A program made the position numbers and the translations under genes. Below, one piece after another: positions 1 through 34,383 of a DNA stretch of 35,013 nt. Below the pieces are notes generated by a model. That model ran no database searches, was not told the origin of the DNA, and was given only the letters and a program-made list of their open reading frames with translations. The number at the start of each line of letters is the position of its first letter. The stretch's first letter is position 1. This DNA comes from a virus (lineage: Duplodnaviria > Heunggongvirae > Uroviricota > Caudoviricetes): IMG/VR virus record IMGVR_UViG_2534681831_000020, positions 1 through 35,013 of that record. One strand, given 5' to 3'.

Positions 1-2120
1 GTCATCATGGACAGCACCGAACGGGTGAATCCCCGCCAGTCTGCCTCTGCACCGGTCAGCATCGCCGCCATATTCTGTGCAATACCGTCAAAGGTCTGCG
101 TGGCAGCACTTTTAACCTGCGAAAAACTGTCCGTCGCACTTTCCGCCCACTCGCCCCAGCCGGACTTCAGCCCGGCCATCCAGCTTCCACGAAGCTGCTC
201 CTCCGCAGACCAGGTGTTCTTCAGTGCCGATGTGGCCTTCGCCAGCGCAGCCGGATTATCACCGTACACGTCCCGAAGACGCTGCGCTTCAGACTCCCGC
301 TGCGCCTGACGGTCAGTGAGACCGCGGGCTTTTGCGCTGATGGCGGCCTGCTTCGCGCTCTGCTGCTCTTCAAACCGCACCGCCTGCTGTGCCAGCTCAT
401 TCAGGCGTTTCTGGTATTCAACCTTGTCGCCCAGCTCAGCCAGCTGGCGTTTGTACTCCAGCGTCTCGTCTTTATGCGCCAGCAGGGATTTTTCCTGCTC
501 AGATAACTGTCGTTTCGTGGCAGCCTCTTTCAGGACCGCATACTGACTTTCCGCCTTCCATAAATCACGGCGCTGCCGGCTGATTTTCTCATTCGCACCG
601 CTGTGTTTTTTCCAGCGTCCTGAGCTCAGCTTCAAGGGCAAGCAGAGCCTCTCTTGCCTGCTCCTCTTCCCTCTCCCCGGCAGAGCGCGTTTTTCGGTGA
701 TGTATGCTTTTTTACCTGTCAGCTCTTCAGCCAGACGGCTGACGGCTTCCTGCTGCCCCGGACCTTTGCTGACGCCTGTTGCACGCGAACGGTTGATGTA
801 CCCCATTTCCCCCTGGCGTATACGCGCATCCCGTTCCGCAATGGATTTTCTCAGCGCCAGTTCATCACGTTTTGTTTTCTCAATAAATACGCGGTTCTCT
901 TCTGCCAGTTCACCAAACAACGCACCAACGCCGGGCACATTCTTTGTCGTTTCCCAGGCTGACTGAATAAATTCAGCCAGCGCCAGATCCCCCTGCACAA
1001 GCAGCAGCTTCACCTGTTCAACGGTTCCTGCCACCACGTCAGTGATCAGACTGAGTGCCCCCAGTGTATGATCACCTATCCATGCCCATGCGTCAGAAGT
1101 CCAGGTTTTAACATCGTCCCAGATTTTTTCCACCGGCGTGGCCGCTTTATCAAGTTGCTCCAGACGTGCATTCATGACATCCGCAAACAGGGACATCGCC
1201 TCCGTCACCGCAGCCTGTTTACCTTTCGTGCGCTCAAGCTCATCAATATGGCGTAACTGGGAAACGCTCAGGAAGTTATACTGCTGATTCAGGGAGGCCA
1301 GCGCCTTCACCGGATCTGCTGCAATCCCTTCAAAGGCTTTTTCCACCTTCCCGGCATCGTCCCCCACCGTCTGCAGCCATCTCTGAGAGGTTTCCCCCAT
1401 GATCCGTAGCTGCCCGGCGGTATATTTCCCGCTTTCTGCCAGACGGGCCAGATTTTCTGCCGCCTGTCTGATACCACCACCGGCTTCATCGCTGATCACC
1501 CCGGCCATTTTCCACAATTCTGCCGTTGTGGTGGCAGCCGCCCCTCCGGTCAGGATCAGTGAACGCAATAAGGCCCGATCAGCCTGCTCTGCCTGCCAGG
1601 CGGCGGCAGCAAGCGCGGCCAGTACGGCAACCCCGCCACCTGCCGCCACACGGGCCACCGACATAAATCGTCCCAGCTCACCGGCATTCCGGGCATTTTC
1701 AGCCAGTGCATTTGCCGTATCTGACAGCGACTCCTCTGATGATTCAGAGGCATCCCTGATCCCGAGAAGTTCCTCCTTCAGCAGGGTAAGCAGGCTGAGC
1801 GGTCCACCGAATGAATCGCTGATCTGCCCCCCCTGCTGCAGCATGATAAGGAAGGGATTCTGACCACCGGCAAGCTGAGTGACAATATCCGTGAACTGTG
1901 CGGGCAGTGTGCGCATGGCAGCCTTATACTGTCCGACTGATATCCCGGCTTTTTGTGCCGCCAGCGCCTGTCGGCTCAGCCCCTGTTCAACAGTACTGGC
2001 GGTTTTTCTGGCATCCGCCTCCAGACTGGAAAAATGACGGCGTACCCGGGCCATCTGTTCATCAAACCGGGCCGCATCCAGACTCAAATCAATAACCAGA
2101 TCACCCGCTGGCTGGGACAT
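1..2120 (-). CDS. H: tail tape measure protein (lambda H-like), partial; 3' end runs off the window start
   Basis: Minus-strand translation from ATG at 2120 gives MSQPAGDLVIDLSLDAARFDEQMARVRRHF...AQKAGISVGQYKAAMRTLPAQFTDIVTQLAGG, matching my recollection of the lambda H N-terminus; no in-frame stop before position 1; sits downstream of G/T as in lambda. Confidence 0.85.
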   Translation of the reverse strand, partial: MSQPAGDLVIDLSLDAARFDEQMARVRRHFSSLEADARKTASTVEQGLSRQALAAQKAGISVGQYKAAMRTLPAQFTDIVTQLAGGQNPFLIMLQQGGQISDSFGGPLSLLTLLKEELLGIRDASESSEESLSDTANALAENARNAGELGRFMSVARVAAGGGVAVLAALAAAAWQAEQADRALLRSLILTGGAAATTTAELWKMAGVISDEAGGGIRQAAENLARLAESGKYTAGQLRIMGETSQRWLQTVGDDAGKVEKAFEGIAADPVKALASLNQQYNFLSVSQLRHIDELERTKGKQAAVTEAMSLFADVMNARLEQLDKAATPVEKIWDDVKTWTSDAWAWIGDHTLGALSLITDVVAGTVEQVKLLLVQGDLALAEFIQSAWETTKNVPGVGALFGELAEENRVFIEKTKRDELALRKSIAERDARIRQGEMGYINRSRATGVSKGPGQQEAVSRLAEELTGKKAYITEKRALPGRGKRSRQERLCLPLKLSSGRWKKHSGANEKISRQRRDLWKAESQYAVLKEAATKRQLSEQEKSLLAHKDETLEYKRQLAELGDKVEYQKRLNELAQQAVRFEEQQSAKQAAISAKARGLTDRQAQRESEAQRLRDVYGDNPAALAKATSALKNTWSAEEQLRGSWMAGLKSGWGEWAESATDSFSQVKSAATQTFDGIAQNMAAMLTGAEADWRGFTRSVLSMM

Positions 2121-2963
2121 ATCTCACACCTCCGGAAATCCCCGCTGAAGCCATCATTAATGCAACATCATCCTCGCTGACATCCACCACATCCGCAGAA
2201 GGTGAAATATCGCGCCCTCCGTCCCCTCCGAACCGGACGCCTCCGGCAACTCCTGTCGCTTTCTGCATCAGCATTTCTTCCTCGTCCGGCATCTCCGTCT
2301 GCTCTTCCTCACACGCTGGAGCAAGCAGACTGAAATCCGCCGGATGCATATCCGGATCGCCAAAAAACAGGCTGAGTACGGCGTACATCAGCCCGGAAAA
2401 ATGAGCGTCCAGTTGGGTATCCTGAAAATAATGCGTGCAGTAAAAACGTCGCCAGTCGGCATATTCGGTGGATGTCATCCCGGCAAGCATGGCGCGCCAG
2501 TCGGGTCTCCCCATCTCTCGCGCCAGTTTCAGGACAAAGTTCAGCTCGCCTTCGAATGCTTTTTTGATGTTACCGGCTCAGTCGCTTCTGCTTTCCCGGT
2601 TTGTTCAGGATCGGCATCGTGCCGGTTATCCAGCATACCTGAAAGATAAAGCACCCGGTTCGTTGCCTGATTCAGTGCATCAGCAGGCCATCCCAGCATC
2701 ACTTCACGGCGGATCTGCTGCATCTCTGTCTCCGGAGAGGCCAGAGTGCCTTTGAGGGAATGGGAATGCCATAGCGACATCGCCACAAGCAGGGATGCCG
2801 TTTCCAGATATCGCTGGTTAATGTGCACGACATCATGCTTCGTTGTCTCCTGTTGTTCTGCGTCTGAAACAAACTTTATATAATCAAACCGCTGCAGCGC
2901 AGACAATTCGGAAAGCGTGACGGACACACCGTTATATTCAAATTGTTCTGTTTTCAGAAACAT
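2101..2963 (-). CDS. tail assembly chaperone G-T fusion made by programmed -1 ribosomal frameshift (G frame 2963..2559, T frame 2565..2101)
   Basis: T-frame ORF (2101..2514 in track) is open upstream to 2577 and reads ...KKAFEGELNFVLKLAREMGRPDW, overlapping the G 3' end; a slippery heptamer lies 6 codons before the G stop; same layout as lambda G/GT. Confidence 0.7.
2541..2963 (-). CDS. G: tail assembly chaperone G
   Basis: 140 aa, MFLKTEQFEYNGVSVTLSELSALQR..., lambda G-like in sequence, size and position between V and H. Confidence 0.85.
   Translation of the reverse strand: MFLKTEQFEYNGVSVTLSELSALQRFDYIKFVSDAEQQETTKHDVVHINQRYLETASLLVAMSLWHSHSLKGTLASPETEMQQIRREVMLGWPADALNQATNRVLYLSGMLDNRHDADPEQTGKAEATEPVTSKKHSKAS
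2559..2565 (-). other. slippery heptamer A-AAA-AAG for the G to G-T -1 frameshift
   Basis: Minus strand reads TCA AAA AAG in the G frame; shifting -1 gives AAA AAA GCA in the T frame, which is the only place between the T-frame stop at 2578..2580 and the G stop where the two frames can be joined. Confidence 0.6.
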
Positions 2964-2976: not shown

Positions 2977-3727
2977 TTACCCTGCAGCGCCCGCTTCAGT
3001 AACGGTGACTTCAGCCACTGCGGCGAACTGACCATTTCCGCTCACCACAGGGATCTGCACCTTACCTGTCGCCACGCCGTTTACCGTAATTGTCATATCT
3101 TTCACACTAATGGTGGCTTTCGACGGATCGGCGGAAACCGCTCTGAACGTCTTGTCGGTTGCACTTTCCGGCTCAAAAGAAACCGTCAGGGTGGTTGTTT
3201 CCCTTTTGCCACCGTACCGGATGTCGGCGTCACCTTAATCGCAGTGACCGGCGTAATTTTGCTGCGTTCTTCCGCTACAGAAGGTTTGCCCACGTTGGTC
3301 ACTTTCACCGTGCGGGTGATCACTTCTTTCGCCGTCACGGCCTTACCGATACTGCTGACCCAGCCACGGAACACATCCACCGTGCCATTTGGGAAACGGA
3401 TTTTATAGGCCCGCACATCCCCGCTTTCAAACCAGCCTATAAGCCCTTTCTGACCTTCTTCTCCCGGTTTCCAGGCCAGCGTAAACTGGTATCTCCTGCA
3501 GACTTCTGCCCCTGCCCGGTCGCGGTCCAGTCCGCGTCTTCATCATCCAGGTAGTTATCATCGTAGGGTTCTGCCGTCATCTCGCCCGGCGTCAGATCCT
3601 TCACCTTAGCCAGTCGCTGCCAGTCATCGTCTGACAACGGGTTTGCATAAGCATCACCCTTGCCGTTGTAAACCCACAGAGTGGTACCGGCACCTTTTAC
3701 CGGCTCAAGGGGATTTGGTGTTGCCAT
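2977..3727 (-). CDS. V: major tail protein (lambda V-like), reading frame broken twice by single-base differences at homopolymers (near 3483..3485 and 3198..3207)
   Basis: Three consecutive minus-strand frames give [36 protein letters not shown]...SAGDTS / ...[42 protein letters not shown]...VAKG / ...[24 protein letters not shown]...[23 protein letters not shown], together collinear with lambda V. Confidence 0.8.
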
Positions 3728-8432: not shown

Positions 8433-10014
8433 GTGGTGTTGTCTCCTCTTCCGGCCTGCGACTCTCCGCTATCTGCTGCTGATACGCCTGCGCTATCCAC
8501 ACCGGGCGTGAGAGTCCGGCTTTTTCCCGCTCTGCAGATTCCCTGACCTGCTGGCGGAAAATGTCCTGATAATCCTCGCCCATCAGCGCCAGCTCTTTCT
8601 CATACGTGCTCAGTCCGGCCTCAATGCGCATCACTGATTCCTGGACTTCCTTGAGCCCGTCAATGGCCATTCTTCCGGCACCAATCCACTCTGCCCGTGA
8701 CCAGGCTGATCGCGCCTGATAAAAATCAAAACGTGCCCGTGGCGGACGAATAATCCCCCGAAGAAGTGCCTCTTCCAGCCAGCAGGAAAACATCTGCGTG
8801 GCCAGTCGGGCCGCAATAAATTTTCGCCGCCCCATAAAATAGCGCCACGACTCATTGGCGGAGGCGCGGGCACTTGAGTAACTGACCTTCGAGTAATCAC
8901 GGGACAACTGTTCGTAGGAAACGCCAAGACCGGCGGCGATATACCGCAGCAGCGCCTGTTCAAGCGCCGAAAATCCATTGTCTGAATCCTGCGCTGTCTG
9001 CAGTTTCAGATCATCACCAGGGAAAAGGTGCGGAATTTTGACACCGCCCAGCGTCACGTGATTCGTGTCATACCAGCTGGAGAACTTCTCCAGAATATTA
9101 ATAAGCGGATTATCCTTCTGCTCCTGTGGCGCGCCGGCGATATATTCAAAGGCCTTTTCGGTATCAAGTTCACTTTCAATCGTCGCTGCATACATCGCCT
9201 TCACTATGGCCGACTGAAGCTGTGTTGCCTGCAGGGAATCGAGCATCTTCAGCCGTTCCATGACGCTGTAAAACTGATTAGCCCCACGGGTCTGCCCGTC
9301 CTCCACCGGCTCGAAAATATGCAGCATAGCCGGACGCCCGGTGGGAAGTTCACGCGGGATCCGTTCCCATCGTCCACTACCAGAGAACGGAAAATCATCC
9401 TCACAAATATGGTACGCGACGGCACGGCCATATCGATCGACCTCCACACCGGCCCGCAGAAAACGGTTCCCCATACCGTGTCCAGGCGTGTCCACCCGTT
9501 TCGGACTCACGGCTTTAAAACGCGTACGGAATAACTGCGTGGTTTCCGTATCCCAGACCGGCTGCACAAAGATTTCGCCGTTAAACGCATGAACGCCCAC
9601 ACCTTCACGGATAAATTCCGTGAACGTGCGTTTTCCTTCCACGTCGATCTCGCCAGACATCCCTTCGGCGTATTCCGACCAGGCCGCCTCCACCTCATCG
9701 ACAAAGCTTTTTGCTGCGGTCTCCCGCATCCCCAGCCAGCGCCAGTTCGGACGGTAGCTGATCAGAAACATATGCCCGACAATGTGATCCTTATGCAGAG
9801 CCACCGCATTAGCCGCTATTCCGTTATTGCGCACCAGATCATCTGCCCGGGCATTCCCCAGACGCAACGCGGGTAGCAGGGCCGCATCGGCACTCTGCGC
9901 CGGTGGCAACCACTCCGCCATTTGCCCGCCAAATCCTGCACCGCCCCCGTTGTAGCTGAGACTCTCACGAAGCGGAACGCCGTTCACATCAATCAGGACA
10001 GGCGTTCGTTTCAT
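8422..10014 (-). CDS. B: portal protein B
   Basis: 530 aa, lambda B-like along its length (lambda B is 533 aa); overlaps C start and W end as in lambda. Confidence 0.9.
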   Translation of the reverse strand: MKRTPVLIDVNGVPLRESLSYNGGGAGFGGQMAEWLPPAQSADAALLPALRLGNARADDLVRNNGIAANAVALHKDHIVGHMFLISYRPNWRWLGMRETAAKSFVDEVEAAWSEYAEGMSGEIDVEGKRTFTEFIREGVGVHAFNGEIFVQPVWDTETTQLFRTRFKAVSPKRVDTPGHGMGNRFLRAGVEVDRYGRAVAYHICEDDFPFSGSGRWERIPRELPTGRPAMLHIFEPVEDGQTRGANQFYSVMERLKMLDSLQATQLQSAIVKAMYAATIESELDTEKAFEYIAGAPQEQKDNPLINILEKFSSWYDTNHVTLGGVKIPHLFPGDDLKLQTAQDSDNGFSALEQALLRYIAAGLGVSYEQLSRDYSKVSYSSARASANESWRYFMGRRKFIAARLATQMFSCWLEEALLRGIIRPPRARFDFYQARSAWSRAEWIGAGRMAIDGLKEVQESVMRIEAGLSTYEKELALMGEDYQDIFRQQVRESAEREKAGLSRPVWIAQAYQQQIAESRRPEEETTPRET

Positions 10015-10217
10015 AACCTCACTCCCAGCGGACGACGGCGACGCCGGGTTGTCCCCAGTACCGACTCCGCATCATTGATCGCCCGGTTAAGCTCATCCAG
10101 AGAAGCCGCCGTATATTCAATTCTGCGACCATCTTTCTGGACAGACACCACCCGTTTACCGGTTAATAAATCAAGGCGCGCCTGACGCAGCGCCTGCAGT
10201 TCAGCGACTGTAACCAT
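10011..10217 (-). CDS. W: head-tail joining protein W
   Basis: 68 aa, ...LLTGKRVVSVQKDGRRIEYTAASLDEL...RRRR, lambda W-like (same length). Confidence 0.75.
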   Translation of the reverse strand: MVTVAELQALRQARLDLLTGKRVVSVQKDGRRIEYTAASLDELNRAINDAESVLGTTRRRRRPLGVRL

Positions 10218-12129
10218 TCACTCCTCCGGACAGCTTCGCTGCCAGTTCTTTAAGGGTTGGCCGGGTCGTCTCTTCTTCCCGGGATTTTGCCAGTACAGCC
10301 AGATCAAGCTGCCAGCGTTGCACGGACACACGTAATGCCGCGTAGGCATACACCAGGCAGTCCAGCGCTTCGTTACGCCGCTTTTTGTTATCCCACAGCA
10401 GACGCATCTTTCCTTTTTCCCACTTCTCCACAAGCTCTTCCGCGACCAGTTGCTGCGCCTCTGTCTGCGAAAAAATCTCCGGATCATCAGGAAAACGGAT
10501 GGCATACGACGTGGCTTCATCCGCAGGCGTGGGATCGGCTTTCATACGGGCATAGAGAATTTCTTTTGCGGTGTCCGTTCCCACTTCACACAGATACACG
10601 CCCCGCTGATTGCGGGTTTTTGGCATGGTGATCACCGGCTTGCCATAGACAGATGCGCCTTTTACCGGCAGCACCCGGAAAACACCGTGTTTTTTTGATC
10701 TCTGATAAACAATTTCACCATCGATCCCCCCGGTGTCCCAGCAGACACGGGAAATAGTCATTTCGGTGCCATCCGCATGGCGGTATTTTTTGTTGATCGC
10801 CGCATCCACACGTAACAGCGTCTCTTCCTCATCAGGACGCCCCATAATGATGATTTTATCCACCAGGAAGGCTTCCTCTCCCGGAGCCCATCCCCAGACA
10901 TACATCTCAAAACGGTTTCGCTGCGAGTCAATGCCCGCCGTCAGATAAACCACCCGGGCAGGCACCGCCGCCGTGTAACGCACCACCTTATCCATCAGTA
11001 CCTGGTGATCGAGTTTTTCGCCCACGGCCTCTTCCCAGGTCTCGCCCAGCGTGGTGTTCACAAAGGTTTTCAGGCCGTTGGGATCTTTCAGTGCATCCAG
11101 CCAGTCATAGACAATCTGTACCCAGGTGGTGAACGGACTGTACGCCGTCCAGATATGGAACGTGATGGAGCGCGGCGGCGGAATTTCATCACCCCGGGCG
11201 CTGAAAAACGTCAGACCGTCACGGGTCCACATGCCTGTGTTTTCACAGATCCACCGCCCGTTGCTCTGGTCCAGTTCAGACTGATGGATCACGCAGCCAT
11301 GATGTTCACAGAGGTAGAAAACACTTTCAGGGCTGTCCTTCTCCCATTTAAGCCCAAAAGGCGTGGACTCATCGCCAAATTTCAGATACTGCTCCTCCCC
11401 ACAGTGCGGGCAGGGCACATAAAAACGCATAAAATGCGCCGACTCGTTAGCGGCTTTTTCGATCTGGCAGGTGCCTTTGATTTTAGGCGTCGAGCCGCGA
11501 ATGGATTTTGGCCACACCGACCCCTCAATACGCTTATCCCCCAGCAGGGTTGGCGAGCCCTCTTTTTCGACATCCGGCTCGAACGAGGAAAGTTCGTCAT
11601 AGCAGACCACGTCCACGGATTTTTCACGGTAGTTTTTGGCGGCAGCGCCGCCCAGGCACCAGAAACCGACGCCCGATGAAAAGCGTTTCAGCGTGAGAGT
11701 ATTGTCACGATGTTTACGACCCAGCCATGGGGAAAGGTCTTTCAGGCATGGCACGTTCCGAATCGTCGCCTCCACGTGAGACTTCATAAAATCTTCAGCG
11801 GCAGAATCCGTGGGCTGAAAAAGCAGACTGTTTCGGGATTTATGCTCAATAAAATACCCGACCACCCCCAGCAACATCTTTGTATAGCCAACACGGGCAG
11901 ATTTAATCAGATTAACAGTGCGGATCTGATCATTCCCCATGCTGTTCATGATGGCGATCTGGAATGGCAGCGTTTTCCATTCGCCCTCACCATATGAAGA
12001 TTCTTTAGGCAGATAATAATTTTGATCAGCCCATTCAACTGGCGTCACCGGCAATGCCCTTATCAGGGGCTGTAATGCAGTTGTGACAGCGCTCATCATA
12101 TTATTCAGTTGTTGCTCTGATATATTCAT
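10201..12129 (-). CDS. A: terminase large subunit A
   Basis: Start set at the internal ATG giving MNISEQQLNN..., as lambda A begins MNISNSQ; collinear with lambda A including the WADQNYYLPKES, GDKRIEGSVWPKSIRGSTPK and CWDTGGIDGEIVYQRSKKHG regions; overlaps the Nu1 3' end as in lambda. Confidence 0.9.
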   Translation of the reverse strand: MNISEQQLNNMMSAVTTALQPLIRALPVTPVEWADQNYYLPKESSYGEGEWKTLPFQIAIMNSMGNDQIRTVNLIKSARVGYTKMLLGVVGYFIEHKSRNSLLFQPTDSAAEDFMKSHVEATIRNVPCLKDLSPWLGRKHRDNTLTLKRFSSGVGFWCLGGAAAKNYREKSVDVVCYDELSSFEPDVEKEGSPTLLGDKRIEGSVWPKSIRGSTPKIKGTCQIEKAANESAHFMRFYVPCPHCGEEQYLKFGDESTPFGLKWEKDSPESVFYLCEHHGCVIHQSELDQSNGRWICENTGMWTRDGLTFFSARGDEIPPPRSITFHIWTAYSPFTTWVQIVYDWLDALKDPNGLKTFVNTTLGETWEEAVGEKLDHQVLMDKVVRYTAAVPARVVYLTAGIDSQRNRFEMYVWGWAPGEEAFLVDKIIIMGRPDEEETLLRVDAAINKKYRHADGTEMTISRVCWDTGGIDGEIVYQRSKKHGVFRVLPVKGASVYGKPVITMPKTRNQRGVYLCEVGTDTAKEILYARMKADPTPADEATSYAIRFPDDPEIFSQTEAQQLVAEELVEKWEKGKMRLLWDNKKRRNEALDCLVYAYAALRVSVQRWQLDLAVLAKSREEETTRPTLKELAAKLSGGVNGYSR

Positions 12130-13579: not shown

Positions 13580-14117
13580 TTTTGCCCATCGTTCAGCTGC
13601 TCTCCGGTACAGTCCTTTTTTCTCCTAGACATTCTGCCAGGTGATCATGTAGCATAAGTAACCTCCGTTTATCTACAGACTGCCATCCTGAATTAACCGT
13701 CCTTAATAAGACAACAATAAAAACTAATTATATAAAAACAATAAAAATAATATACAAAAAAACTAAACAACAAAGAAAAGCAAATCATATCTGGCATTTT
13801 AATTGAAAGAGCAATTACCGAACAAAAGACGCTGACTATATACTCAAAACCAAACAACAATTCTGCCAATCAGGTATCATGGCAACACACGGAATTACCA
13901 TGTTTTTGCCTTCTCTGCCCATACAATACGGGCATATACTTCATACTCTATTGTAATATTTCTATCCATGCGCCCCACTCCATTTACCTGTAAATAATAT
14001 TCAAAATATTTATCACAGAAATCGTTTTTGGCCATGAACTGAGCACACTATAAAGTCCGGAACTGACTCTTTGTTAAATTACCTTAACGTTACCAGTAAC
14101 ACCTTCGTAACAAAACA

Positions 14118-14805: not shown

Positions 14806-14881
14806 TTAGTTTTTGCCAGTTCGCAGGATTTCGTGTTATCCGCCCGTGTGAGCAAACCGCATTTTCAGCAAAATATTCTGC

Positions 14882-15415
14882 TTATCTGTCAATTCCCCAG
14901 CACGCCAGCGCGCTCTCCTGGTCACGCCGTGAGACCTGACCGTAGCAGTTGTTTGAGCGAATACGGCAGTCTCTGCCGCCGTCCTTAATCCACCAGCGAA
15001 TCGCTTCGCAGGCTCCCCTGCGGTCACCTGCATTAATCCGTCTGTAAAACGTCGACGGGAAACACTTACCGGGGCCAATGTTGTACGGACAGAATGACGC
15101 AATCCCCGCTTTCTGGGGTTCGGTCAGTGGCACTCTGATGTTTTTCTCCACCCATGCCAGCGCCTTATCACGTTCAATGGCGTTAACCTGGTCGCATTTT
15201 TCCTTCGACAGCTTCATGCCAGGAATCACAGGCTTACCATCCACCATGATGGCACCTCGGCAGATGGTCCAGATACCCGCACCATCACGGTATGCCGTGG
15301 TGTGGTTACCTTCCTTTTCATCCAGAAACTGGTCGAGAATGTCAGGCGCAGGCGCACCAGCGGCAATCAGCGCCAGAACGGCAGCCGACAGGCCGTATTT
15401 GATTTTGGTGTTCAT
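14882..15415 (-). CDS. R: endolysin (phage lysozyme) with N-terminal signal-anchor-release (SAR) segment
   Basis: 177 aa; N-terminal weakly hydrophobic, Ala/Gly-rich stretch LSAAVLALIAAGAPAP typical of SAR endolysins, followed by a lysozyme-like body; lies between holin and Rz. Confidence 0.8.
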   Translation of the reverse strand: MNTKIKYGLSAAVLALIAAGAPAPDILDQFLDEKEGNHTTAYRDGAGIWTICRGAIMVDGKPVIPGMKLSKEKCDQVNAIERDKALAWVEKNIRVPLTEPQKAGIASFCPYNIGPGKCFPSTFYRRINAGDRRGACEAIRWWIKDGGRDCRIRSNNCYGQVSRRDQESALACWGIDR

Positions 15416-15457: not shown

Positions 15458-15880
15458 TTATATACGTCCTTTAAGATAAGTCAGTCCTGGATGAAACCAG
15501 TAAGCCGGCACTTTTTTAAAGGGCGGGTTGTCAAACTCACGAAGAAGAGCCTCCCGCACAACTGCATCCTTGTCCGCACCACTGGCCAGCGCTTCAATCT
15601 CAGCAGCTATCTGCAGATATCCCATGCAACGACCAATGCACTTCATCAGCCCCTGCTTTTTATTGTTCTTCAGGTAATCAATGGCAAATTCAATGAGCAC
15701 CTCACTATGCTGGTGCGATGGCGGTGTTACTTTTCCATTTTCTGAGATGGTTATTTTCCCAGCATCACCGGATACAACAAAGGATGGCCGGTTACACTCC
15801 CATTCCAGCTCACTGAAATTATCATTATGAATACTGAAACACTCTGAGAGATTTCTGCTCATCGCGGCGTTTTTTTTCAT
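15458..15880 (-). CDS. hypothetical protein inserted between holin and endolysin
   Basis: 140-aa ORF in a locally AT-richer segment; no family recognised; weak Shine-Dalgarno; overlaps a 49-aa ORF that has a strong one. Confidence 0.4.
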   Translation of the reverse strand: MKKNAAMSRNLSECFSIHNDNFSELEWECNRPSFVVSGDAGKITISENGKVTPPSHQHSEVLIEFAIDYLKNNKKQGLMKCIGRCMGYLQIAAEIEALASGADKDAVVREALLREFDNPPFKKVPAYWFHPGLTYLKGRI

Positions 15881-15974
15881 CTTCAGAAGGCATCAGCGTC
15901 GACAGTTTTTTATTCAGTTCAGCAATTTCATTTTCCAGACGACTGAAGCGCTGATTCATTTCTTCATGGTTCAT
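15825..15974 (-). CDS. hypothetical 49-aa protein immediately downstream of the holin stop codon
   Basis: MNHEEMNQRFSRLENEIAELNKKLSTLMPSEDEKKRRDEQKSLRVFQYS; the ATG is 3 nt after the holin stop, with GGGGAG about 9 nt upstream; overlaps the 140-aa ORF in another frame across an A8 run. Confidence 0.25.
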   Translation of the reverse strand: MNHEEMNQRFSRLENEIAELNKKLSTLMPSEDEKKRRDEQKSLRVFQYS

Positions 15975-25888: not shown

Positions 25889-26244
25889 TCACTTTCAATT
25901 TTGTAAATCTTCACGCCCAGCCGCCCACCAGAAACGAGCTGGCCGCGCACAATATTGATTTCATCAAACTGCTCGTCGTCTATGAGAAGTCCGGCATGCG
26001 TCAGCGCATCCAGTGGTGCTTTCAGGATATTGTCCAGGTCACGACGGCGCTTATCCGGTGGCTCTGCAATAATCTTTATCGCCAGCCTTCCGGACAGGTT
26101 TAATTTCAGCCGCTGCTGGCGAACAATAAGTGCCACATCCCGGCGATAACGCTCACCGGCTTTTGATACAAAATATGTGCTGCCACGACGTCGCCAGTAG
26201 GTGTTCACCGTCGGCGGGTAAGGCAAAACAAACTCTATACGCAT
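25885..26244 (-). CDS. rusA: Holliday junction resolvase RusA
   Basis: 119 aa, MRIEFVLPYPPTVNTYWRRRG...PPDKRRRDLDNILKAPLDALTHAGLLIDDEQ..., RusA motifs (catalytic DLDN). Confidence 0.8.
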   Translation of the reverse strand: MRIEFVLPYPPTVNTYWRRRGSTYFVSKAGERYRRDVALIVRQQRLKLNLSGRLAIKIIAEPPDKRRRDLDNILKAPLDALTHAGLLIDDEQFDEINIVRGQLVSGGRLGVKIYKIESE

Positions 26245-26256
26245 CAGTAACCTCTT

Positions 26257-27360
26257 TTACCCGAGCACGCCGGTTGCAAAGGCGTGATCAAGAAAACGAA
26301 AAATTAAATCAACCTGGGAACCATGCTTTTCTTCGAACGCCAGCGGATCCGCATGAAGCTCGTTGTGATGCTCCCGACACAGCGGTAGCGTGAAAATATC
26401 GTGGGATTTTGTTCCCATTCCGCCCTGACCATGACCAATCAGATGATGAGGATCGTCCGCTGGCTTACCACAACACGCACACGGCTGTGTCTTTACCCAG
26501 CGTGTGTATTTCTCATTTACCCAGCGGCGACGTTTAGGTCGTTTCATGAAGGATTCCGGAGACTCCGGATCAACGGCAATGCTGACCACCGTCTTTTCCT
26601 GTGGTGGGTTCTGTTGCTGGTGGGTGTGAGGCGGTAGCGCAATATTTTTTGTGCGCTGCTTCAGTATGCTGGTGGCGGTCTGTTCTCCCGGTATGATGTC
26701 GCTTTCACGGTATACGGAGCGGATTTTTTCCGCCGGTAATCCCAGAGAGCGACGCGATACTGCCTCAGGTAATGCGTCCACCACCTGATTGCAGACTGCC
26801 CACCAGGATAATTCAGCCAGCGATAATTCCCGCTCCTGCGTGCCATTCATTACATGGCGTATGACGTCAATCATCCAGGCTGTCAGATTTTGTTGAGTAA
26901 GTTGCTCAAGTGATTCGGAGGTCTGGTCGCGCAGCTGGTTGTCGCAGTGCCAGCACAACACCATTGCGCCAGCACCGTAACTGTGAATAACGGTTTCGCT
27001 GTGATGATAATCGCCGTGTGGCCACTGGCAGGATTTCACGTGACGTAATAACCAGTCAGACAGTGCACCAGCGCCGCCAGCTGCACGAATCACCCGCTCA
27101 TCGCTGAAAAATGGCAGCAGTGATTTATCTTCCGCCAGCGGCTGGCGAACAGCAGGAACCGCTCCAGATGGCAGCGCCCGCATGTTTTTCGGTTCCGGCT
27201 CCACCAGCACCCTGCCGCGATGAAAAACTGGCAATGATTCACGACCGGGCTTAAGGACCACCAGCCCGAGTTCCGGAACCAGAACAGGTCGAAGTAATAC
27301 CCGCACATTACCTCCAGACGCGCTGACGGTAGCAGGCATGTGTCCGTGGCAGATGTGCAC
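26257..27360 (-). CDS. DUF968-family protein with C-terminal Cys/His HNH-like motif; start uncertain (an internal start near 27183 would avoid overlap with the upstream ORF)
   Basis: C-terminus ...RWVKTQPCACCGKPADDPHHLIGHGQGGMGTKSHDIFTLPLCREHHNELH; this frame is closed upstream of 27390; positional equivalent of ydfU upstream of Q in the K-12 Qin prophage (recalled). Confidence 0.5.
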   Translation of the reverse strand: MHICHGHMPATVSASGGNVRVLLRPVLVPELGLVVLKPGRESLPVFHRGRVLVEPEPKNMRALPSGAVPAVRQPLAEDKSLLPFFSDERVIRAAGGAGALSDWLLRHVKSCQWPHGDYHHSETVIHSYGAGAMVLCWHCDNQLRDQTSESLEQLTQQNLTAWMIDVIRHVMNGTQERELSLAELSWWAVCNQVVDALPEAVSRRSLGLPAEKIRSVYRESDIIPGEQTATSILKQRTKNIALPPHTHQQQNPPQEKTVVSIAVDPESPESFMKRPKRRRWVNEKYTRWVKTQPCACCGKPADDPHHLIGHGQGGMGTKSHDIFTLPLCREHHNELHADPLAFEEKHGSQVDLIFRFLDHAFATGVLG

Positions 27361-27580
27361 GAACAGGAAGATATACAGAAACGGTCCAGGTCAGACGATC
27401 AGCGTTCAGACTCCGCTCCACACGGACACCGCGACGCAGATACGCCTCTTGAAGCATATCTGCCTCATCGATCGTACAGAACAGATAGTGAAACCAGCCA
27501 TACTGAGGCGCACGAAAACGCCTCCCCTGCTTAATTTCCGGGTCGGCTTCAGAATTGTGGGATTTTATGTGTTGTGTCAT
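27308..27580 (-). CDS. hypothetical small protein (Rem-like by position)
   Basis: 90-aa ORF between the hok-type toxin region and the DUF968 gene; overlaps the DUF968 ORF by 53 nt. Confidence 0.3.
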   Translation of the reverse strand: MTQHIKSHNSEADPEIKQGRRFRAPQYGWFHYLFCTIDEADMLQEAYLRRGVRVERSLNADRLTWTVSVYLPVRAHLPRTHACYRQRVWR

Positions 27581-27654
27581 CGGATTCTCCGGTGACAGCA
27601 GGTGTCAGTTGTTCAGGCTGACTGCGCGAATTGTAAGGCAATACGCCGGAATGT

Positions 27655-27686
27655 ACAAACAGAAAACCCGTCAGTAAGACGGGCTT
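27655..27686 (-). terminator. intrinsic terminator downstream of the YgiW-like gene
   Basis: Minus strand: aaGCCCGTCttactGACGGGCttttctgttt, a 7-bp stem with T-rich tail about 20 nt after the stop. Confidence 0.5.
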
Positions 27687-27701
27687 AACAAGCAGGGGCG
27701 G

Positions 27702-28046
27702 TTACTTTAATAATTTCAGTGCCTTTACATCAACTTCAACACTGCTCAGGTCTTTATCAATTTCACCCTCAATTCTTACTTTGTCTTTCGGAGAAACATT
27801 CTGCCCGGCCCATACGCTGTCATCAATATCCGTGACAATTGTCCCGCTATTGTCACGAAACTCATAACGTTCATCACCCACTTTTTTAACGATGCTCCCT
27901 TCAAGGATAACCCATGCATCATCCTTCAGTTCTTTTGCCTGCGCTACTGTTGAACGCTCTGCTTCTGGCCCCTGGAAACCACCCTGCTGTGCAAAAGCGC
28001 CAAAAGACACACCGGAAATAAGTGCTGCAATCAATACCTTTTTCAT
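27702..28046 (-). CDS. YgiW/YdeI (BOF) family periplasmic OB-fold protein (moron)
   Basis: 114 aa with signal peptide MKKVLIAALISGVSFGAFAQQ and GGFQGP...TVAQAKELKDDAWVILEGSIVKKVGDERYEFRDNSGTIVTDID...VRIEGEIDKD, resembling E. coli YgiW. Confidence 0.7.
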   Translation of the reverse strand: MKKVLIAALISGVSFGAFAQQGGFQGPEAERSTVAQAKELKDDAWVILEGSIVKKVGDERYEFRDNSGTIVTDIDDSVWAGQNVSPKDKVRIEGEIDKDLSSVEVDVKALKLLK

Positions 28047-28165
28047 TCATAGTCCTCTTTCAGAGATGAACATTCAAACAGCATTTTCAGTATGGTAAAG
28101 CGCGGGTGCGTTGAGGATGCCTGACACATCAGAGGTGGCGGGAGATTACTCCCCCGCCTGGTCTC

Positions 28166-28321
28166 TTACTTCTCAGATTCGTAGTCTACGAAGACAGCGA
28201 CCTCCGTCTGACCGGTTCGGATTCGCACCTCGCAGAGGTCTTTCCTCGTTACCAGTGCCGTCACTATGACGGTTAAACAGATGACGATCAGGGCGATTAA
28301 CATCGCCTTTTGCTGCTTCAT
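28166..28321 (-). CDS. hok: Hok/Gef-family type I toxin (51 aa)
   Basis: MKQQKAMLIALIVICLTVIVTALVTRKDLCEVRIRTGQTEVAVF..., near-identical over most of its length to HokD/RelF as I recall it; an upstream in-frame extension (track ORF start 28378) is Mok-like. Confidence 0.8.
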   Translation of the reverse strand: MKQQKAMLIALIVICLTVIVTALVTRKDLCEVRIRTGQTEVAVFVDYESEK

Positions 28322-28611
28322 AGCCTGCTTCTCCTTGCCTTTCGGCACGTAAGAGGCTAACCTACATGTGTTCAGCATGGATTGAGCCTCAGATTAATGT
28401 TAAGCGTCTTGCAGGACGCGTAATGTTAACTGGGGCTTTTCTCTATCTGCCGTTGGTGTTCATGCCCGAGGCAGATAGCCTCAAGCACCCGCTGCAATTC
28501 TACTTAACTATCCTTTTCCCGCAAACCGTTTTTATCCCCAGCGGCAAATCGAATACTCCACCAGCGCCACCGCCATCGCAATTCCTACCGTTGTGAATGC
28601 TTCAGGCCAGG

Positions 28612-29169
28612 TCATTGATTCACCTCCTGCGGCGGTTCTGGTAGCGACATCCAGTGGGTTGCTTGCCTAAGAGCATTACCCGGACTAACTGCTATACCTC
28701 CGCGCCGGAACGTGCCTCCGAGATAGCGTGCGGAATATATTAATGGCCCAGCCTCGCTATCGATATTCATCGAAATAAGCACGTTCTGGCTCTTTTCAGG
28801 CATTCGCTCAGTACAGCTTATCCAGCCATCCAGAGTTATCGGAGATCTGGTTGACGTTTCCGAGATTTCCCGAAAATTGTTGGTTGACGAATTCTTATTT
28901 TCCCGAAAGTTTCCGGCCTGAAGCATGGCGACGCGGCAGGCGTTCCAGCCATCAGCATATGTTTTAGTTACACCGTCGAGATGGCAGGTAAGCAAATCCA
29001 TTTCATCAGGCACTACCATTGCTATCGGCTCTGCTTCCAGTGATGCCAGCGCGATACGAAACACATTAGCCAGCAGGCTGTCTGAAGACTTGTTATCGTG
29101 CGCCGAGTCGCTCAGGAAGCCTGTGATGTATGATTTAATCTCCGCGCGTTCTCTGGTAATAGTGCTCAT
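28612..29169 (-). CDS. DUF551-family protein
   Basis: 185 aa; C-terminal ...WISCTERMPEKSQNVLI...THWMSLPEPPQ resembles the DUF551 signature of enterobacterial prophages (recalled). Confidence 0.45.
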   Translation of the reverse strand: MSTITRERAEIKSYITGFLSDSAHDNKSSDSLLANVFRIALASLEAEPIAMVVPDEMDLLTCHLDGVTKTYADGWNACRVAMLQAGNFRENKNSSTNNFREISETSTRSPITLDGWISCTERMPEKSQNVLISMNIDSEAGPLIYSARYLGGTFRRGGIAVSPGNALRQATHWMSLPEPPQEVNQ

Positions 29170-29170
29170 A

Positions 29171-29389
29171 TCAGTTTTCCTTATACGGATTAATTTTATT
29201 GTGCAGTGCGCTGAATGATTCCCATGTCACATCGGTATATAGCTCAATAACTGGTTCAAATGTCCTTCCAATTATCCAGACCAGTAATAGCGGGGATATC
29301 GGTATCATCAACACTATAAACAGAATGAAAAACAGAAACTCTGTTGTTCTGCTCTTTCGTGGGTAATTTTTTTCTAAATAATGTTTCAT
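29171..29389 (-). CDS. hypothetical small membrane protein
   Basis: 72 aa with one strongly hydrophobic helix FLFFILFIVLMIPISPLLLVWIIG; AT-rich. Confidence 0.3.
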   Translation of the reverse strand: MKHYLEKNYPRKSRTTEFLFFILFIVLMIPISPLLLVWIIGRTFEPVIELYTDVTWESFSALHNKINPYKEN

Positions 29390-29516
29390 TTCTTACCGCC
29401 CTTTCGGGCGGCCTCCTGATGTTCTGAGGGTGCAGGAATCCCTCCGGTTAAGGATTTAATAAAAATCGTTTCTGATTTAAATCTTCAGTATTTAGTTGTT
29501 AGTTGGTTTATCGCCT

Positions 29517-29828
29517 TTATGCTTCAGCCTTATTTCGCAACCAGACACAAACCGGGCCATCTTCCGTATCATGAATGGAACCAATAAACCAGCCATCGCC
29601 CTCTGGTCGTTCCGGTTCCCATGCAGAAATATCAGCATCACACGCATCAAGGTCAGCACATCCTTCATCTCTGAAGCAGAGGACGTATTGAAGATTATTT
29701 TCCTCCATCCAGGCGTTAAACTCTTCCGTTGAAATATATTCCCGACCATCACAGAATTTTTCATATTCAGGATGTGTCCAGTAGCCATATCCGTCACGAA
29801 CTACCGGCATTTCTTTAATTTTACTCAC
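29517..29828 (-). CDS. hypothetical acidic Cys-containing protein
   Basis: 103-aa ORF, MSKIKEMPVVRDGYGYWTHPEYEKFCDGREYI...; no family assigned. Confidence 0.35.
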   Translation of the reverse strand: MSKIKEMPVVRDGYGYWTHPEYEKFCDGREYISTEEFNAWMEENNLQYVLCFRDEGCADLDACDADISAWEPERPEGDGWFIGSIHDTEDGPVCVWLRNKAEA

Positions 29829-30048
29829 TGTTAACCTCCTGCAACGCTACACGATACGCCTTCTTTATCCACGCCTTACTGCCATATAATTTCGTCTTCA
29901 TAATAAACACACCTGCACGACTCGCCGATATCCCCGGACAGGTTAACAGCACAGCATCCACCACACGGTTATGCTTCCGAAACTCCATTACAGTACTGCT
30001 GATAACCACCTGCCCCACCGGGCCGTAATCCTGATACAGGATTTTCAC
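29821..30048 (-). CDS. hypothetical protein
   Basis: 75-aa ORF, translationally coupled to its neighbours. Confidence 0.3.
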   Translation of the reverse strand: MKILYQDYGPVGQVVISSTVMEFRKHNRVVDAVLLTCPGISASRAGVFIMKTKLYGSKAWIKKAYRVALQEVNSE

Positions 30049-30329
30049 GCAGACACCCTCCTGTCGAAATAAACGTAGTTATTCACTATGCGCAGCGGCA
30101 TGCCTAATTTTCTGGCAATTTCCCTTCTTTGCATGCCTCTCTGATGCAGTTGCCGCGCCAGCTCAATATCACGCTGAGAATATTTTGCCGACGGGTGAAA
30201 ATCACCACGTAACATCATGCTGATGCCCAGCTCCCGTGCCTTCGTTCTCACTGCCGCTTCAGTTCGTCCGATAAGTGCGCCAACGCTTTTTACCTTCATC
30301 GTTCCCGCACACTGCCGGAGTATCATGAT
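30045..30329 (-). CDS. hypothetical helix-turn-helix protein (start set at internal MILRQ; track ORF extends to 30449)
   Basis: Two HTH-like segments (GRTEAAVRTKARELGIS and QRGMQRREIARKLGMPLRIV). Confidence 0.35.
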   Translation of the reverse strand: MMILRQCAGTMKVKSVGALIGRTEAAVRTKARELGISMMLRGDFHPSAKYSQRDIELARQLHQRGMQRREIARKLGMPLRIVNNYVYFDRRVSA

Positions 30330-30358
30330 TTCCGCCCGGCACCACGTCTTCCACCCAC

Positions 30359-31093
30359 TCACCGCTGCTGTTCTCTGGTGGCGGTAATATCCCGGAGAAT
30401 ATCCCGGCACTTGTTCAGCTCCCGCAGCGCGGCGCAGACTCGCTCCCACTTCTGAACCTGACCTTTTGCCCGGCGCAGCTCGCGGTTAGCCACATGCAGC
30501 GATGGTAAAATCAGACCATCCGGATGCTTTCTGGTGAACGACGGCTGTGACTGCACTGTGACCGCCACACTTTCCGTTTTTATTTCTTCCTGTGTTTCCG
30601 CTTCCCCGACTGGTAACGCAACACCTGCTGGCTGAGGAAAGGCTTTACCATCCGTTTCCGCTATGGATGCGGCTTTCGGCTCTGCCGGTAAATCAGCGCC
30701 CGGTATGCAGTACCGAAATTTACCGCCCTGATTCACGCGAATCAGACGCCCTTTGCTGATTGCCATGGCCAGTGATGAATTCGCCCGGCGGGAGGTAATC
30801 CCGAACATCAGGGCCAGCTCATCCGCCGTTTGTGGGCCATGATGTTCAATCGCCTCAGTCAGCATTTGCGCTGTCACTTTCGGTACCGGTGACACTGGTT
30901 CACTTTCACCAGCCTGAATCAGCCACCACATCGAACCCTTGTTATCCGCTTCACCACGGCGCTTCAGTTTCCACAGTTCGTTGACAGCATCTTCGCGGCT
31001 GATTCCAAGGCGCGATGCCACTACCTGTGAAGAGGCTTTTTTCAGTGCTTTCAGTGCGTCAAATACAGTTTCCATTAAAACGTCCTCCAACAA
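30359..31093 (-). CDS. hypothetical protein with N-terminal winged-helix-like domain
   Basis: 244-aa ORF; N-terminal ...[26 protein letters not shown]...; located just downstream of the replication genes. Confidence 0.4.
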
Positions 31094-31096
31094 AAA

Positions 31097-31843: not shown

Positions 31844-31849
31844 GCCACA

Positions 31850-32926: not shown

Positions 32927-33032
32927 CTCTTCTGATACCGAATCTTTTTACTCACGAGTTGCCGGAAGCGATTCGATACGGCTATTGTCAGTCAATGTAC
33001 TGCCACAGCATTTCCTGCCGGGCCACCACGGT

Positions 33033-33416
33033 TCATCTGATTGAAACCGGCGATTGCCACTGCGCAAAATCATCAGCGTCTCTCACCAGTCGCTCCCGCG
33101 TCTCCACCAGCTCCCGAAAATAAGCTGAACTGTGGCTGCGCATTCTGGCCACCAGCAAAGGTGGCATTGCCTTTTCGATCGCTGGTAACAACGCCTGAAT
33201 TTTTTCAACTGCATCAGGGGTGTCTTTCTCTACCCAGCGGAAAATTTTCTGGGTATTGCGAGCCAGGGCTTCCGGATGGCTGTCGTCATACAGTTCAGGA
33301 AACGTCATACCCAACTCAAAATAAGCCTGGGTTATTCCAGCTGCTGGAACTTTTTCGCCATCAGGACGCGCCCAGGCATTCATCGCCATGCGGATGTGTT
33401 CATGCTTGATTTTCAT
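33033..33416 (-). CDS. YdaT-like protein (cII-position gene of Rac-type immunity regions)
   Basis: 127-aa ORF immediately downstream of and overlapping the Cro/YdaS-like gene; assigned by position and Rac-like context. Confidence 0.4.
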   Translation of the reverse strand: MKIKHEHIRMAMNAWARPDGEKVPAAGITQAYFELGMTFPELYDDSHPEALARNTQKIFRWVEKDTPDAVEKIQALLPAIEKAMPPLLVARMRSHSSAYFRELVETRERLVRDADDFAQWQSPVSIR

Positions 33417-33681: not shown

Positions 33682-33684
33682 AGC

Positions 33685-34199: not shown

Positions 34200-34383
34200 C
34201 TCACCAAACAACCAGTCACCAGTTAAGACACATCAAAAAATTACCCATGGGTATTTACTTTTTAAATACCCATAGGTATCCTTCCTTTCATACCAACCCA
34301 CCCCGTCCCACAGAACGCAGGGCAATACTTCGAGTTACCAGGCAGTGGTCAGGGGGTAAGTAGCCAGCCCGAGGCGTAAGAAC

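What the first reader, a model, noticed from the sequence alone, without database searches (positions are those of the whole stretch)
3198..3485. Single-base frame breaks at homopolymer runs in otherwise intact genes suggest consensus errors rather than pseudogenes
V is split into three frames by changes at a T3 run (3483..3485) and at the aaaagggaaa tract (3198..3207). The IS66 transposase is broken at an A6 run (about 22478..22483) and the repressor at an A6 run (33916..33929). In each case adding one base to the run restores a full-length conserved protein. A structural tail gene with two independent lesions in an otherwise pristine morphogenesis operon is more likely a sequencing artefact than decay.
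Basis: partly seen in the sequence, partly recalled or inferred. Interest (0 to 1): 0.55.

Follow-up and report, generated by a model that had tools for sequence, protein, structure and literature searches.

The report
Draft-assembly indel errors, not pseudogenes
The broken tail, transposase and repressor genes are almost certainly base-calling and consensus errors in an old draft contig of E. coli DEC8B, because the finished genome of what appears to be the same strain has every one of these genes intact at those positions.

Summary
The frame breaks are real features of the sequence, at the stated coordinates. They are four of 18 single-base indels (9 insertions, 9 deletions) that occur only in this window. 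The window is the whole 35,013-bp contig AIGG01000042.1 of the draft assembly GCA_000249815.2, which is E. coli DEC8B (O111:H8, human, Idaho 1986).

A finished genome labelled "O111:H8 strain 8B, human, Idaho" (NZ_CP077473.1) carries the same prophage. It has the same nested IS1203-in-ISEc47 insertion and shares all the lineage SNPs. At all 18 indel sites it shows the intact allele, as do the other four O111 genomes wherever they cover the site (each site is covered by at least four of the five, always including Sanger-finished 11128). No complete E. coli genome out of 5,426 shares either V lesion.

Eleven of the 18 indels lie in runs of 4 or more bases, which make up 7.4% of the sequence (P = 7e-9). 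The indels are clustered and affect both coding and non-coding DNA.

The IS66 transposase cannot be restored by adding one base, because IS1203 genuinely interrupts it. The morphogenesis operon is not otherwise pristine, because the tape-measure gene has three extra bases.

The window also has 10 private substitutions that look like a consensus blended from paralogous prophages. Verdict: an artefact of low interest.

The parts
2977..3727 (-). Major tail tube gene V (lambda gpV type: Phage_TTP_12 plus a Big_2 domain). In the window it is split into three frames.
   Evidence: Three-frame translation. Alignment to the intact 753-nt gene shows only two 1-base gaps. Pfam matches on the intact homologue: PF16461 at 1e-68 and PF02368 at 7e-19.
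3483..3485 (-). V lesion 1. Plus-strand A3 (coding-strand T3) where all references have a run of 4.
   Evidence: No complete genome shares it, and IMG/VR has no exact match. The same deletion is seen once, in the indel-ridden assembly JAVRHC010000001.1.
3198..3200 (-). V lesion 2. Plus-strand T3 (the last A-run of coding-strand AAAAGGGAAA) where all references have a run of 4.
   Evidence: The same deletion is seen once elsewhere, about 30 to 60 nt from the end of a 6.6-kb IMG/VR contig that has a second 1-base deletion about 17 nt away.
606..713 (-). Three 1-base T insertions in the tape-measure gene H (T5 to T6, T4 to T5, T5 to T6). The net change is +3, so the frame recovers after a garbled stretch.
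   Evidence: tblastn of the 8B H protein gives 96.2% identity, with 26 mismatches and one gap. None of the three insertions occurs in any complete genome.
13626..13722 (-). A non-homopolymer T insertion at 13626 near the start of the PerC-family gene, and A6 to A5 at 13718..13722 in the intergenic region upstream.
   Evidence: The PerC protein aligns only from residue 11 onward.
14861..14864 (.). T5 to T4 in the intergenic region between the lysozyme and Rz-like lysis genes.
19181..19261 (-). Three 1-base insertions (T, C, T) in runs of 0 to 1 base inside the 55-codon DUF3927 gene.
   Evidence: Protein identity falls to 55%. No complete genome has any of them.
22476..22481 (+). A7 to A6 in the 3' part of ISEc47 (IS66 family) tnpC.
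   Evidence: tblastn switches from frame 1 to frame 3 at this run.
20860..22169 (+). IS1203 (IS3 family) inserted inside ISEc47 tnpC. This is a genuine disruption, independent of the frame break.
   Evidence: 100% match to other IS1203 copies. 11128 and 95NR1 have an uninterrupted tnpC, 8234 has IS1203 126 bp away, and only 8B matches this half of the window in one piece.
24771..24866 (.). Four indels in 90 bp of intergenic DNA upstream of the Q-like gene: T4 to T3, T2 to T3, +C, and C7 to C6.
   Evidence: The best complete-genome matches still differ at three positions.
33064..33064 (-). Deletion of a single A (not in a run) near the 3' end of the YdaT-family gene. It replaces the last 24 or so residues.
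33781..34199 (+). Regulator in the CI/RacR position, divergent from the YdaS/cro-like gene and YdaT. It is broken by A7 to A6 at 33924..33929.
   Evidence: PHROG 5736 'transcriptional regulator' at 4.7e-70, with a weak match to a repressor PHROG. No Pfam match.
14978..15029 (-). Four private substitutions in the lysozyme gene. All are third-codon positions and synonymous.
   Evidence: The protein is 100% identical. The combination is in no complete genome and absent from IMG/VR. Each state occurs in other natural lysozyme alleles.
31949..32057 (-). Five private substitutions in the replisome-organizer-like gene. Together they match an allele found in other prophages.
   Evidence: The 171-bp segment has 100% matches in many genomes at other loci.

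Best explanation
The frame breaks are errors in the consensus sequence of a draft assembly, not mutations in the bacterium. The window is contig AIGG01000042.1 of the draft genome of E. coli DEC8B. It covers a lambdoid prophage that has several near-identical relatives in the same genome.

During base calling and consensus building, single bases were gained or lost, mostly in short homopolymer runs and in local clusters. At a few places the consensus also picked up bases from paralogous prophage copies. The real prophage, as read in the finished genome of strain 8B, has an intact V, H, PerC, DUF3927, YdaT and CI-position regulator.

What is shown: the identity of the contig, that the variants are private to it, that the intact alleles are present in six independent genomes (the five aligned O111 genomes, plus E2863 for V), and that the indels are enriched in homopolymers. 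What is inferred: that 8B and DEC8B are the same strain, that the errors arose at the read or consensus stage, and that the substitution clusters come from blended paralogues. The sequencing platform was not verified.
For: Source of the window:
- An exact-protein look-up places the 96-aa V fragment on NCBI contig AIGG01000042.1 of GCA_000249815.2, whose length is 35,013 bp, the same as the window.
- GCF_000249815.1 is DEC8B (PMC7693793).
- DEC8B is O111:H8, human, Idaho, 1986 (PMC2211750).
- NZ_CP077473.1 is 'O111:H8 strain 8B, Homo sapiens, USA: Idaho'.

Comparison with references:
- Against five genomes (8B, 8234, 95NR1, 95JB1 and Sanger-finished 11128), the window has 18 single-base indels and 10 substitutions at which every reference that covers the site agrees against it.
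- 8B has no private difference. The window shares all of 8B's lineage-specific states (4985, 5814, 28673, 34274).
- Each other reference has at most one private indel.
- 8B is the only record of 20,395 that matches window 19000..35013, which holds the IS1203-in-tnpC arrangement, in a single piece.

Variants are private to the window:
- The best V matches in 5,426 complete genomes all have both gaps.
- The H and DUF3927 clusters are absent from all complete genomes.

Error profile:
- There are 9 insertions and 9 deletions.
- Eleven of 18 lie in runs of 4 or more, which are 7.4% of the bases (P = 7e-9). Three of the 11 runs of length 7 are hit.
- The indels sit in tight clusters: three in about 110 bp, three in 80 bp, four in 90 bp.
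- Six of them are intergenic.

Recurrence elsewhere: the two V lesions recur only in other visibly error-laden assemblies. One is next to a contig end beside another deletion.
Against: - No reads were inspected, so the errors are inferred from comparison only.
- That '8B' is the same strain as DEC8B rests on matching metadata, shared private markers and the shared IS arrangement. No explicit statement was found, and no paper citing CP077473 was found.
- Seven of the 18 indels are in runs of 2 or fewer, or not in a run at all, so 'homopolymer error' does not describe them all.
- Only 12 of 18 indels fall in coding sequence, against a coding fraction of 88% (P = 0.017). This would fit weak selection, although the four-indel intergenic cluster accounts for it.
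- The four lysozyme substitutions are all synonymous. Random base-calling error would not do that, so they need a second mechanism, a consensus blended from paralogues. That mechanism is inferred and was not shown in DEC8B itself.
Confidence: 0.95

Rival explanations
1. The lesions are genuine mutations. On this view the DEC8B stock that was sequenced carries a decaying, defective prophage with true pseudogenes of V, the regulator and others.
For: - Prophages in EHEC genomes are often defective. This one has real lesions: IS1203 in tnpC, and a gene at 15458..15974 that is annotated as frameshifted in all four references whose annotation covers it.
- Coding sequence is mildly under-hit.
- Homopolymer slippage is also the natural route to frameshift mutations.
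Against: - There are 18 private indels and 10 private substitutions in 35 kb. In contrast, 8B differs from 95NR1 by about four substitutions, and no reference has more than one private indel.
- None of the lesions is present in 8B, in four other O111 genomes, or, for the alleles tested, in 5,426 complete genomes.
- Several indels are not slippage-type, being insertions where there is no run.
- Tight clusters of three or four indels within about 100 bp are not expected from independent mutations.
- That indel density, if applied genome-wide, would be incompatible with viability. It would therefore have to be specific to the prophage, yet occur without matching substitution decay.
Confidence: 0.03
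2. The indels come from blending paralogous prophage copies in a collapsed-repeat consensus. On this view the odd alleles are real sequences that belong to other prophages of the same genome.
For: - The replisome-organizer substitution cluster matches alleles at other prophage loci at 100%.
- Each of the four synonymous lysozyme changes is a state seen in other natural lysozyme alleles.
- O111 genomes carry several copies of these modules, with up to 7 to 11 places per genome.
Against: - The indel alleles themselves are found nowhere. The V, H and DUF3927 variants have no match in any complete genome.
- Frame-breaking alleles of V would not be expected in functional paralogues.
- So this mechanism fits the substitution clusters but not the frame breaks.
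Confidence: 0.02
3. The frame changes are functional. On this view they are decoded by programmed ribosomal frameshifting or transcriptional slippage, or they are phase-variable tracts that switch the genes on and off.
For: - The window does hold real programmed frameshifts. One is the lambda-type G/GT site GGGAAAG at 2591..2597, about 50 nt before the G stop codon. The other is IS1203 orfA/orfB, annotated as a programmed frameshift.
- The regulator and tnpC lesions lie in A7 tracts, a length at which slippage becomes appreciable.
Against: - V is a single uninterrupted ORF in the roughly 2,800 genomes that carry a close homologue.
- The tracts have the same length in every reference that covers them, so there is no sign of length variation between strains.
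- The two V sites are runs of only 3 to 4 bases with no conserved two-ORF architecture.
Confidence: 0.005

Closest known systems
Residual single-base indel errors in draft bacterial assemblies (the homopolymer miscalls typical of flow-based and uncorrected long-read sequencing)
   Same: Single-base gains and losses are enriched in homopolymer runs, in both directions. They hit coding and non-coding DNA, cluster locally and near contig ends, are private to one assembly, and are absent from finished genomes.
   Different: Seven of the 18 are outside runs of 3 or more. The platform used for DEC8B was not verified here: the genome announcement (Hazen et al. 2012, J Bacteriol 194:3026) is not held in the library. 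No reads were seen.
Bacteriophage lambda major tail protein gpV (tail tube, with a C-terminal Ig-like domain)
   Same: The restored 250-aa protein has Phage_TTP_12 plus Big_2 domains. It sits between U and G/T in a lambda-order tail operon.
   Different: Nothing unusual. The gene is identical to WP_000235098.1 once the two missing bases are added.
Lambda G/GT programmed -1 frameshift
   Same: It is a true, conserved frame change at a slippery run in the same operon: GGGAAAG at 2591..2597, followed by the T ORF.
   Different: It is present in all references and has the two-ORF architecture. The V breaks have neither property. It is a reminder that automatic frameshift repair must not touch this site.
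Genuine prophage pseudogenes in EHEC O111 lambdoid prophages
   Same: IS1203 inside ISEc47 tnpC, and the gene at 15458..15974 annotated as frameshifted in the references, are real reproducible lesions in this prophage.
   Different: The real lesions are shared with independently sequenced genomes.

Membership tests
Sequencing or assembly consensus error | The variant is private to one assembly and absent from closely related genomes. | tested here: met
   All 18 indels are window-only against every one of five O111 genomes that covers the site. The V, H and DUF3927 alleles are absent from 5,426 complete genomes.
Sequencing or assembly consensus error | An independent, higher-quality sequence of the same strain shows the intact allele. 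| tested here: met
   Strain 8B (NZ_CP077473.1) has the reference allele at all 18 sites, shares the window's lineage SNPs, and is the only record matching the IS1203-bearing half in one piece. That it is the same strain is inferred from matching serotype, host and state, not stated anywhere I could read.
Sequencing or assembly consensus error | The error spectrum consists of single-base indels in both directions, enriched in homopolymers, that do not spare coding sequence. | tested here: met
   9 insertions and 9 deletions. Eleven of 18 are in runs of 4 or more (P = 7e-9). Twelve are in coding sequence and six are intergenic.
Sequencing or assembly consensus error | The underlying reads show low coverage, low quality or disagreement at the sites. 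| not testable with these tools
   No read data are available here.
Genuine pseudogene or defective prophage | The lesion can be reproduced in independent sequences of the lineage, and is accompanied by proportionate substitution decay. | tested here: not met
   The lesions are absent from 8B and all other references. The ratio of indels to substitutions is 18 to 10, and the substitutions fall in three spots: two clusters and one single site. The feature is met only for the IS1203 insertion in tnpC and for the gene at 15458..15974.
Programmed ribosomal frameshift | A slippery motif together with a two-ORF arrangement that is conserved in homologues. | tested here: not met
   V is one ORF in all annotated homologues. 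The feature is met instead by G/T at 2591..2597.
Phase-variable (contingency) homopolymer tract | The tract length varies among strains or within a culture. | tested here: not met
   The A7 tracts in the regulator and tnpC, and the runs of 4 in V, have the same length in every reference that covers them. Variation within a culture could not be tested.

The most novel reading that the evidence does not exclude
A few of the 18 indels could be real minority or stock-specific variants rather than errors, in particular the A7 to A6 change in the CI-position regulator. If so, the A7 tract would act as a slippage-prone switch that inactivates prophage immunity in a subpopulation.
Probability: 0.02. 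Interest if true: 0.4.

Novelty: not a real feature. Interest (0 to 1): 0.05.

Why it matters
There is no biological novelty here. The value is practical.

- Anyone annotating or comparing this contig would wrongly call the prophage defective, with a split tail tube gene V, a broken immunity regulator and truncated PerC and YdaT. They would also see a garbled H and DUF3927. DEC8B has been used as an RNA-seq mapping reference (PMC7693793).
- The finished record NZ_CP077473.1 should be used instead.
- The case shows a cheap test for separating artefact from decay: check whether lesions are private to one assembly or shared across independent ones.
- It also shows that blanket 'frameshift repair' would be wrong. 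The contig contains real frame changes (G/GT, IS1203 orfA/B, the gene at 15458..15974) and a real IS disruption.

Tried and rejected
- **Paralogue blending as the source of the indels.** I searched the H, DUF3927 and Q-upstream clusters against all complete E. coli genomes. The H and DUF3927 variants were not found at all. In the Q-upstream cluster the best matches differ at three positions rather than four, so one variant there may be shared. I rejected this explanation for the frame-breaking indels and kept it only for the substitution clusters.
- **Exact-match scans of IMG/VR for the two V lesions and the lysozyme allele.** There was one hit, for V lesion 2, on a short contig. The deletion lies next to the contig end beside another deletion. 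I read this as a recurrent error, not a natural allele.
- **The second assembly carrying the same 96-aa V fragment (JAVRHC010000001.1).** I examined it as a possible independent confirmation of a real allele. It has about seven indels within the V region alone, so I rejected it as evidence.
- **The sequencing platform.** I tried to read the DEC genome announcement to establish it. The paper is not held and a text search did not help. My recollection that flow-based (454) data were involved is therefore unverified and is not used as evidence.
- **A paper linking CP077473 to DEC8B.** I searched for one and found none.
- **A paralogous copy inside the 8B genome.** I did not locate one, because the search tool lists only the best place per record. 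The blended-consensus explanation for the substitutions therefore remains an inference.

Full report
**What the window is.** The window is a lambdoid prophage of an O111-type E. coli, with most genes on the minus strand.
- Tape-measure gene H (running off the left end), then T, G, V, U, Z, the head genes and terminase, up to about 12.7 kb.
- A lysis cassette.
- A SASA-family esterase gene (16900..18837).
- An ISEc47 (IS66-family) element.
- Three tRNA genes.
- A Q-like gene, replication genes, and a Rac-like immunity region.

An exact-sequence look-up of the 96-aa N-terminal V fragment returned NCBI contig AIGG01000042.1 of assembly GCA_000249815.2. That contig is 35,013 bp long, so the window is the whole contig. 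GCF_000249815.1 is named as strain DEC8B in PMC7693793. DEC8B is O111:H8, human, Idaho, 1986 (PMC2211750, Table 1).

**Checking the observation.** V (2977..3727, minus strand) translates in three frames. A megablast search of the V region against 5,426 complete E. coli genomes found 2,839 genomes with most of it. The best hits are all 903 bases against the window's 901, which means two gaps and no mismatch. No genome shares either gap.

The alignment places the gaps precisely. One is coding-strand T4 to T3, at plus-strand 3483..3485. The other is AAAAGGGAAAA to AAAAGGGAAA, at plus-strand 3198..3200. The intact protein is a lambda-type tail tube protein with a C-terminal Ig-like domain.

The other two breaks are also present. 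tnpC has A7 to A6 at 22476..22481. The 139-codon regulator in the CI/RacR position has A7 to A6 at 33924..33929. That regulator matches a PHROG family of transcriptional regulators.

**The wider picture.** I aligned the window with five O111 genomes:
- 8B (NZ_CP077473.1);
- 8234;
- 95NR1;
- 95JB1;
- the Sanger-finished 11128.

8234 and 95JB1 each cover only about half of the window. The window has 18 single-base indels and 10 substitutions at which every reference that covers the site agrees against it.

The private indels are:

| Window position | Change | Location |
|---|---|---|
| 606, 690, 708 | +T each | tape-measure gene H |
| 3197, 3482 | -1 each | V |
| 13626 | +T | PerC-family gene |
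| 13718 | -A | intergenic |
| 14861 | -T | intergenic |
| 19181, 19233, 19260 | +T, +C, +T | DUF3927 gene |
| 22475 | -A | tnpC |
| 24771, 24789, 24857, 24861 | -T, +T, +C, -C | upstream of the Q-like gene |
| 33064 | -A | YdaT-family gene |
| 33923 | -A | CI-position regulator |

Each other reference has at most one private indel, and 8B has none. The window matches 8B at every position where 8B differs from the other strains (4985, 5814, 28673, 34274).

The morphogenesis operon is not otherwise pristine. The three insertions in H garble the protein between them (26 mismatches in 705 aligned residues) before the frame recovers.

**The transposase.** The claim that one added base restores a full-length transposase is wrong. 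IS1203 (20860..22169) is inserted in ISEc47 tnpC.
- 11128 and 95NR1 have an uninterrupted 1,614-nt tnpC.
- 8234 has IS1203 at a site 126 bp away.
- 8B is the only record in the collection that matches window 19000..35013 in a single piece, so it appears to have the same insertion point.

This disruption is therefore real and reproducible. Only the A6 break within the 3' fragment is private to the window.

**Artefact or decay.** Five lines of evidence point to artefact.
1. A finished genome whose name, serotype, host and state match DEC8B carries the intact allele at all 18 sites. It also shares the window's private markers, including what reads as the same IS1203 insertion.
2. The variants are found nowhere else. 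The V, H and DUF3927 alleles are absent from all complete genomes. The Q-upstream cluster still differs at three positions from the nearest genome.
3. The spectrum is that of errors. There are 9 insertions and 9 deletions. Eleven of 18 lie in runs of 4 or more, which hold 7.4% of the bases (P = 7e-9). Three of the 11 runs of length 7 are hit.
4. The indels come in tight clusters (three in about 110 bp, three in 80 bp, four in 90 bp). Six lie in non-coding DNA.
5. Eighteen indels against ten substitutions over 35 kb is far from mutational expectation, given that independent O111 isolates differ by only a handful of substitutions over the same region.

One caution is that coding sequence is slightly under-hit: 12 of 18 indels against a coding fraction of 88% (P = 0.017). 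The intergenic four-indel cluster accounts for this, and clustered events are not independent.

**Recurrence of the V lesions elsewhere.**
- The first V deletion also occurs in JAVRHC010000001.1. That assembly has about seven indels in the V region alone.
- The second occurs in IMG/VR contig IMGVR_UViG_2534681940_000014, roughly 30 to 60 nt from the contig end, next to another 1-base deletion.

I read both as recurrent miscalls at the same short runs in low-quality sequence, not as evidence for a natural allele.

**The substitutions.** The ten private substitutions need a different explanation.
- The four in the lysozyme gene (14978, 15005, 15011, 15029) are all third-codon positions and synonymous. 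The combination is in no complete genome or IMG/VR contig. Each state is seen in other natural lysozyme alleles.
- The five in the replisome-organizer-like gene (31949..32057) together match alleles at other prophage loci at 100%.
- The tenth, at 13450 in the PerC-family gene, is also synonymous and was not examined further.

O111 genomes hold several copies of these modules. The most economical reading is therefore a consensus blended from reads of paralogous prophages. This is an inference. I could not locate the paralogues within the 8B genome.

**Alternatives.**
- Genuine decay is contradicted by the private status of every lesion and by the error spectrum.
- Programmed frameshifting does not apply to V, which is a single ORF in all annotated homologues.
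- Phase variation has no support, because the tracts have one length in all references.

The window does contain true frame changes that any polishing must leave alone:
- the lambda-type G/GT slippery site GGGAAAG at 2591..2597;
- IS1203 orfA/orfB;
- a gene at 15458..15974 that is annotated as frameshifted in all four references whose annotation covers it, and whose reading frames appear to switch near an A8 run.

**Verdict.** The feature is an artefact of a draft assembly. The sequencing platform was not verified, because the genome announcement is not in the library. The decisive test, inspection of reads, cannot be run here.

Noticed in passing
window 2591..2597 (minus strand), within G (2541..2963) and upstream of T (2101..2514): There is a lambda-type slippery heptamer GGGAAAG about 50 nt before the G stop codon, with the T ORF following. 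This is the expected G/GT programmed -1 frameshift, a real frame change that automated frameshift repair should not remove.
   Followed up: partly
window 15458..15974 (minus strand), between the holin and lysozyme genes: This gene is annotated as 'frameshifted' in 8B, 11128, 95NR1 and 95JB1 alike. Its reading frames appear to switch near an A8 run (about 15869..15876). The window is identical to the references here, so this lesion is reproducible. That makes it a useful contrast with the private ones. I did not check whether an intact version exists elsewhere.
   Followed up: partly
window 19838..23567: This is a nested insertion: ISEc47 (IS66 family: tnpA 19838..20263, tnpB 20260..20610, tnpC from 20641) is interrupted by IS1203 (20860..22169). 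Among the complete genomes, only strain 8B matched this half of the window in one piece. Strain 8234 has IS1203 in the same gene, 126 bp away.
   Followed up: yes
window 14978, 15005, 15011, 15029 (lysozyme gene 14882..15415, minus strand): Four private substitutions, all synonymous third positions. Each state is seen in other lysozyme alleles, but the combination is in no genome searched. I suggest a consensus blended from paralogous prophage copies rather than base-calling noise.
   Followed up: partly
window 31949..32057 (replisome-organizer-like gene 31850..32926, minus strand): A cluster of five private substitutions, causing one amino-acid change. As a block it is 100% identical to alleles at other prophage loci in many genomes. 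It is either a blended consensus or a gene conversion. I did not resolve which, because the paralogue in 8B was not located.
   Followed up: partly
L008 (JAVRHC010000001.1, GCA_046576165.1), locus 9987..10800: This is a 4.9-Mb contig of a recent assembly. Its V gene has about seven indels in 800 bp, including the same T4 to T3 deletion as the window. The assembly looks unpolished.
   Followed up: partly
window 23773..24024 (minus strand): Three phage-borne tRNA genes. ARAGORN calls them Arg (tct), Arg (tcg) and Met (cat). RefSeq annotates the CAT one as tRNA-Ile, presumably a lysidine-modified Ile2 type.
   Followed up: no
window 33033..34199: This is a Rac-like immunity region: a YdaT-family gene, a YdaS/cro-like regulator (33400..33681, minus strand), and a divergent 139-codon regulator with no Pfam domain. 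Calling the last one 'the repressor' rests on its position and a PHROG match only.
   Followed up: partly
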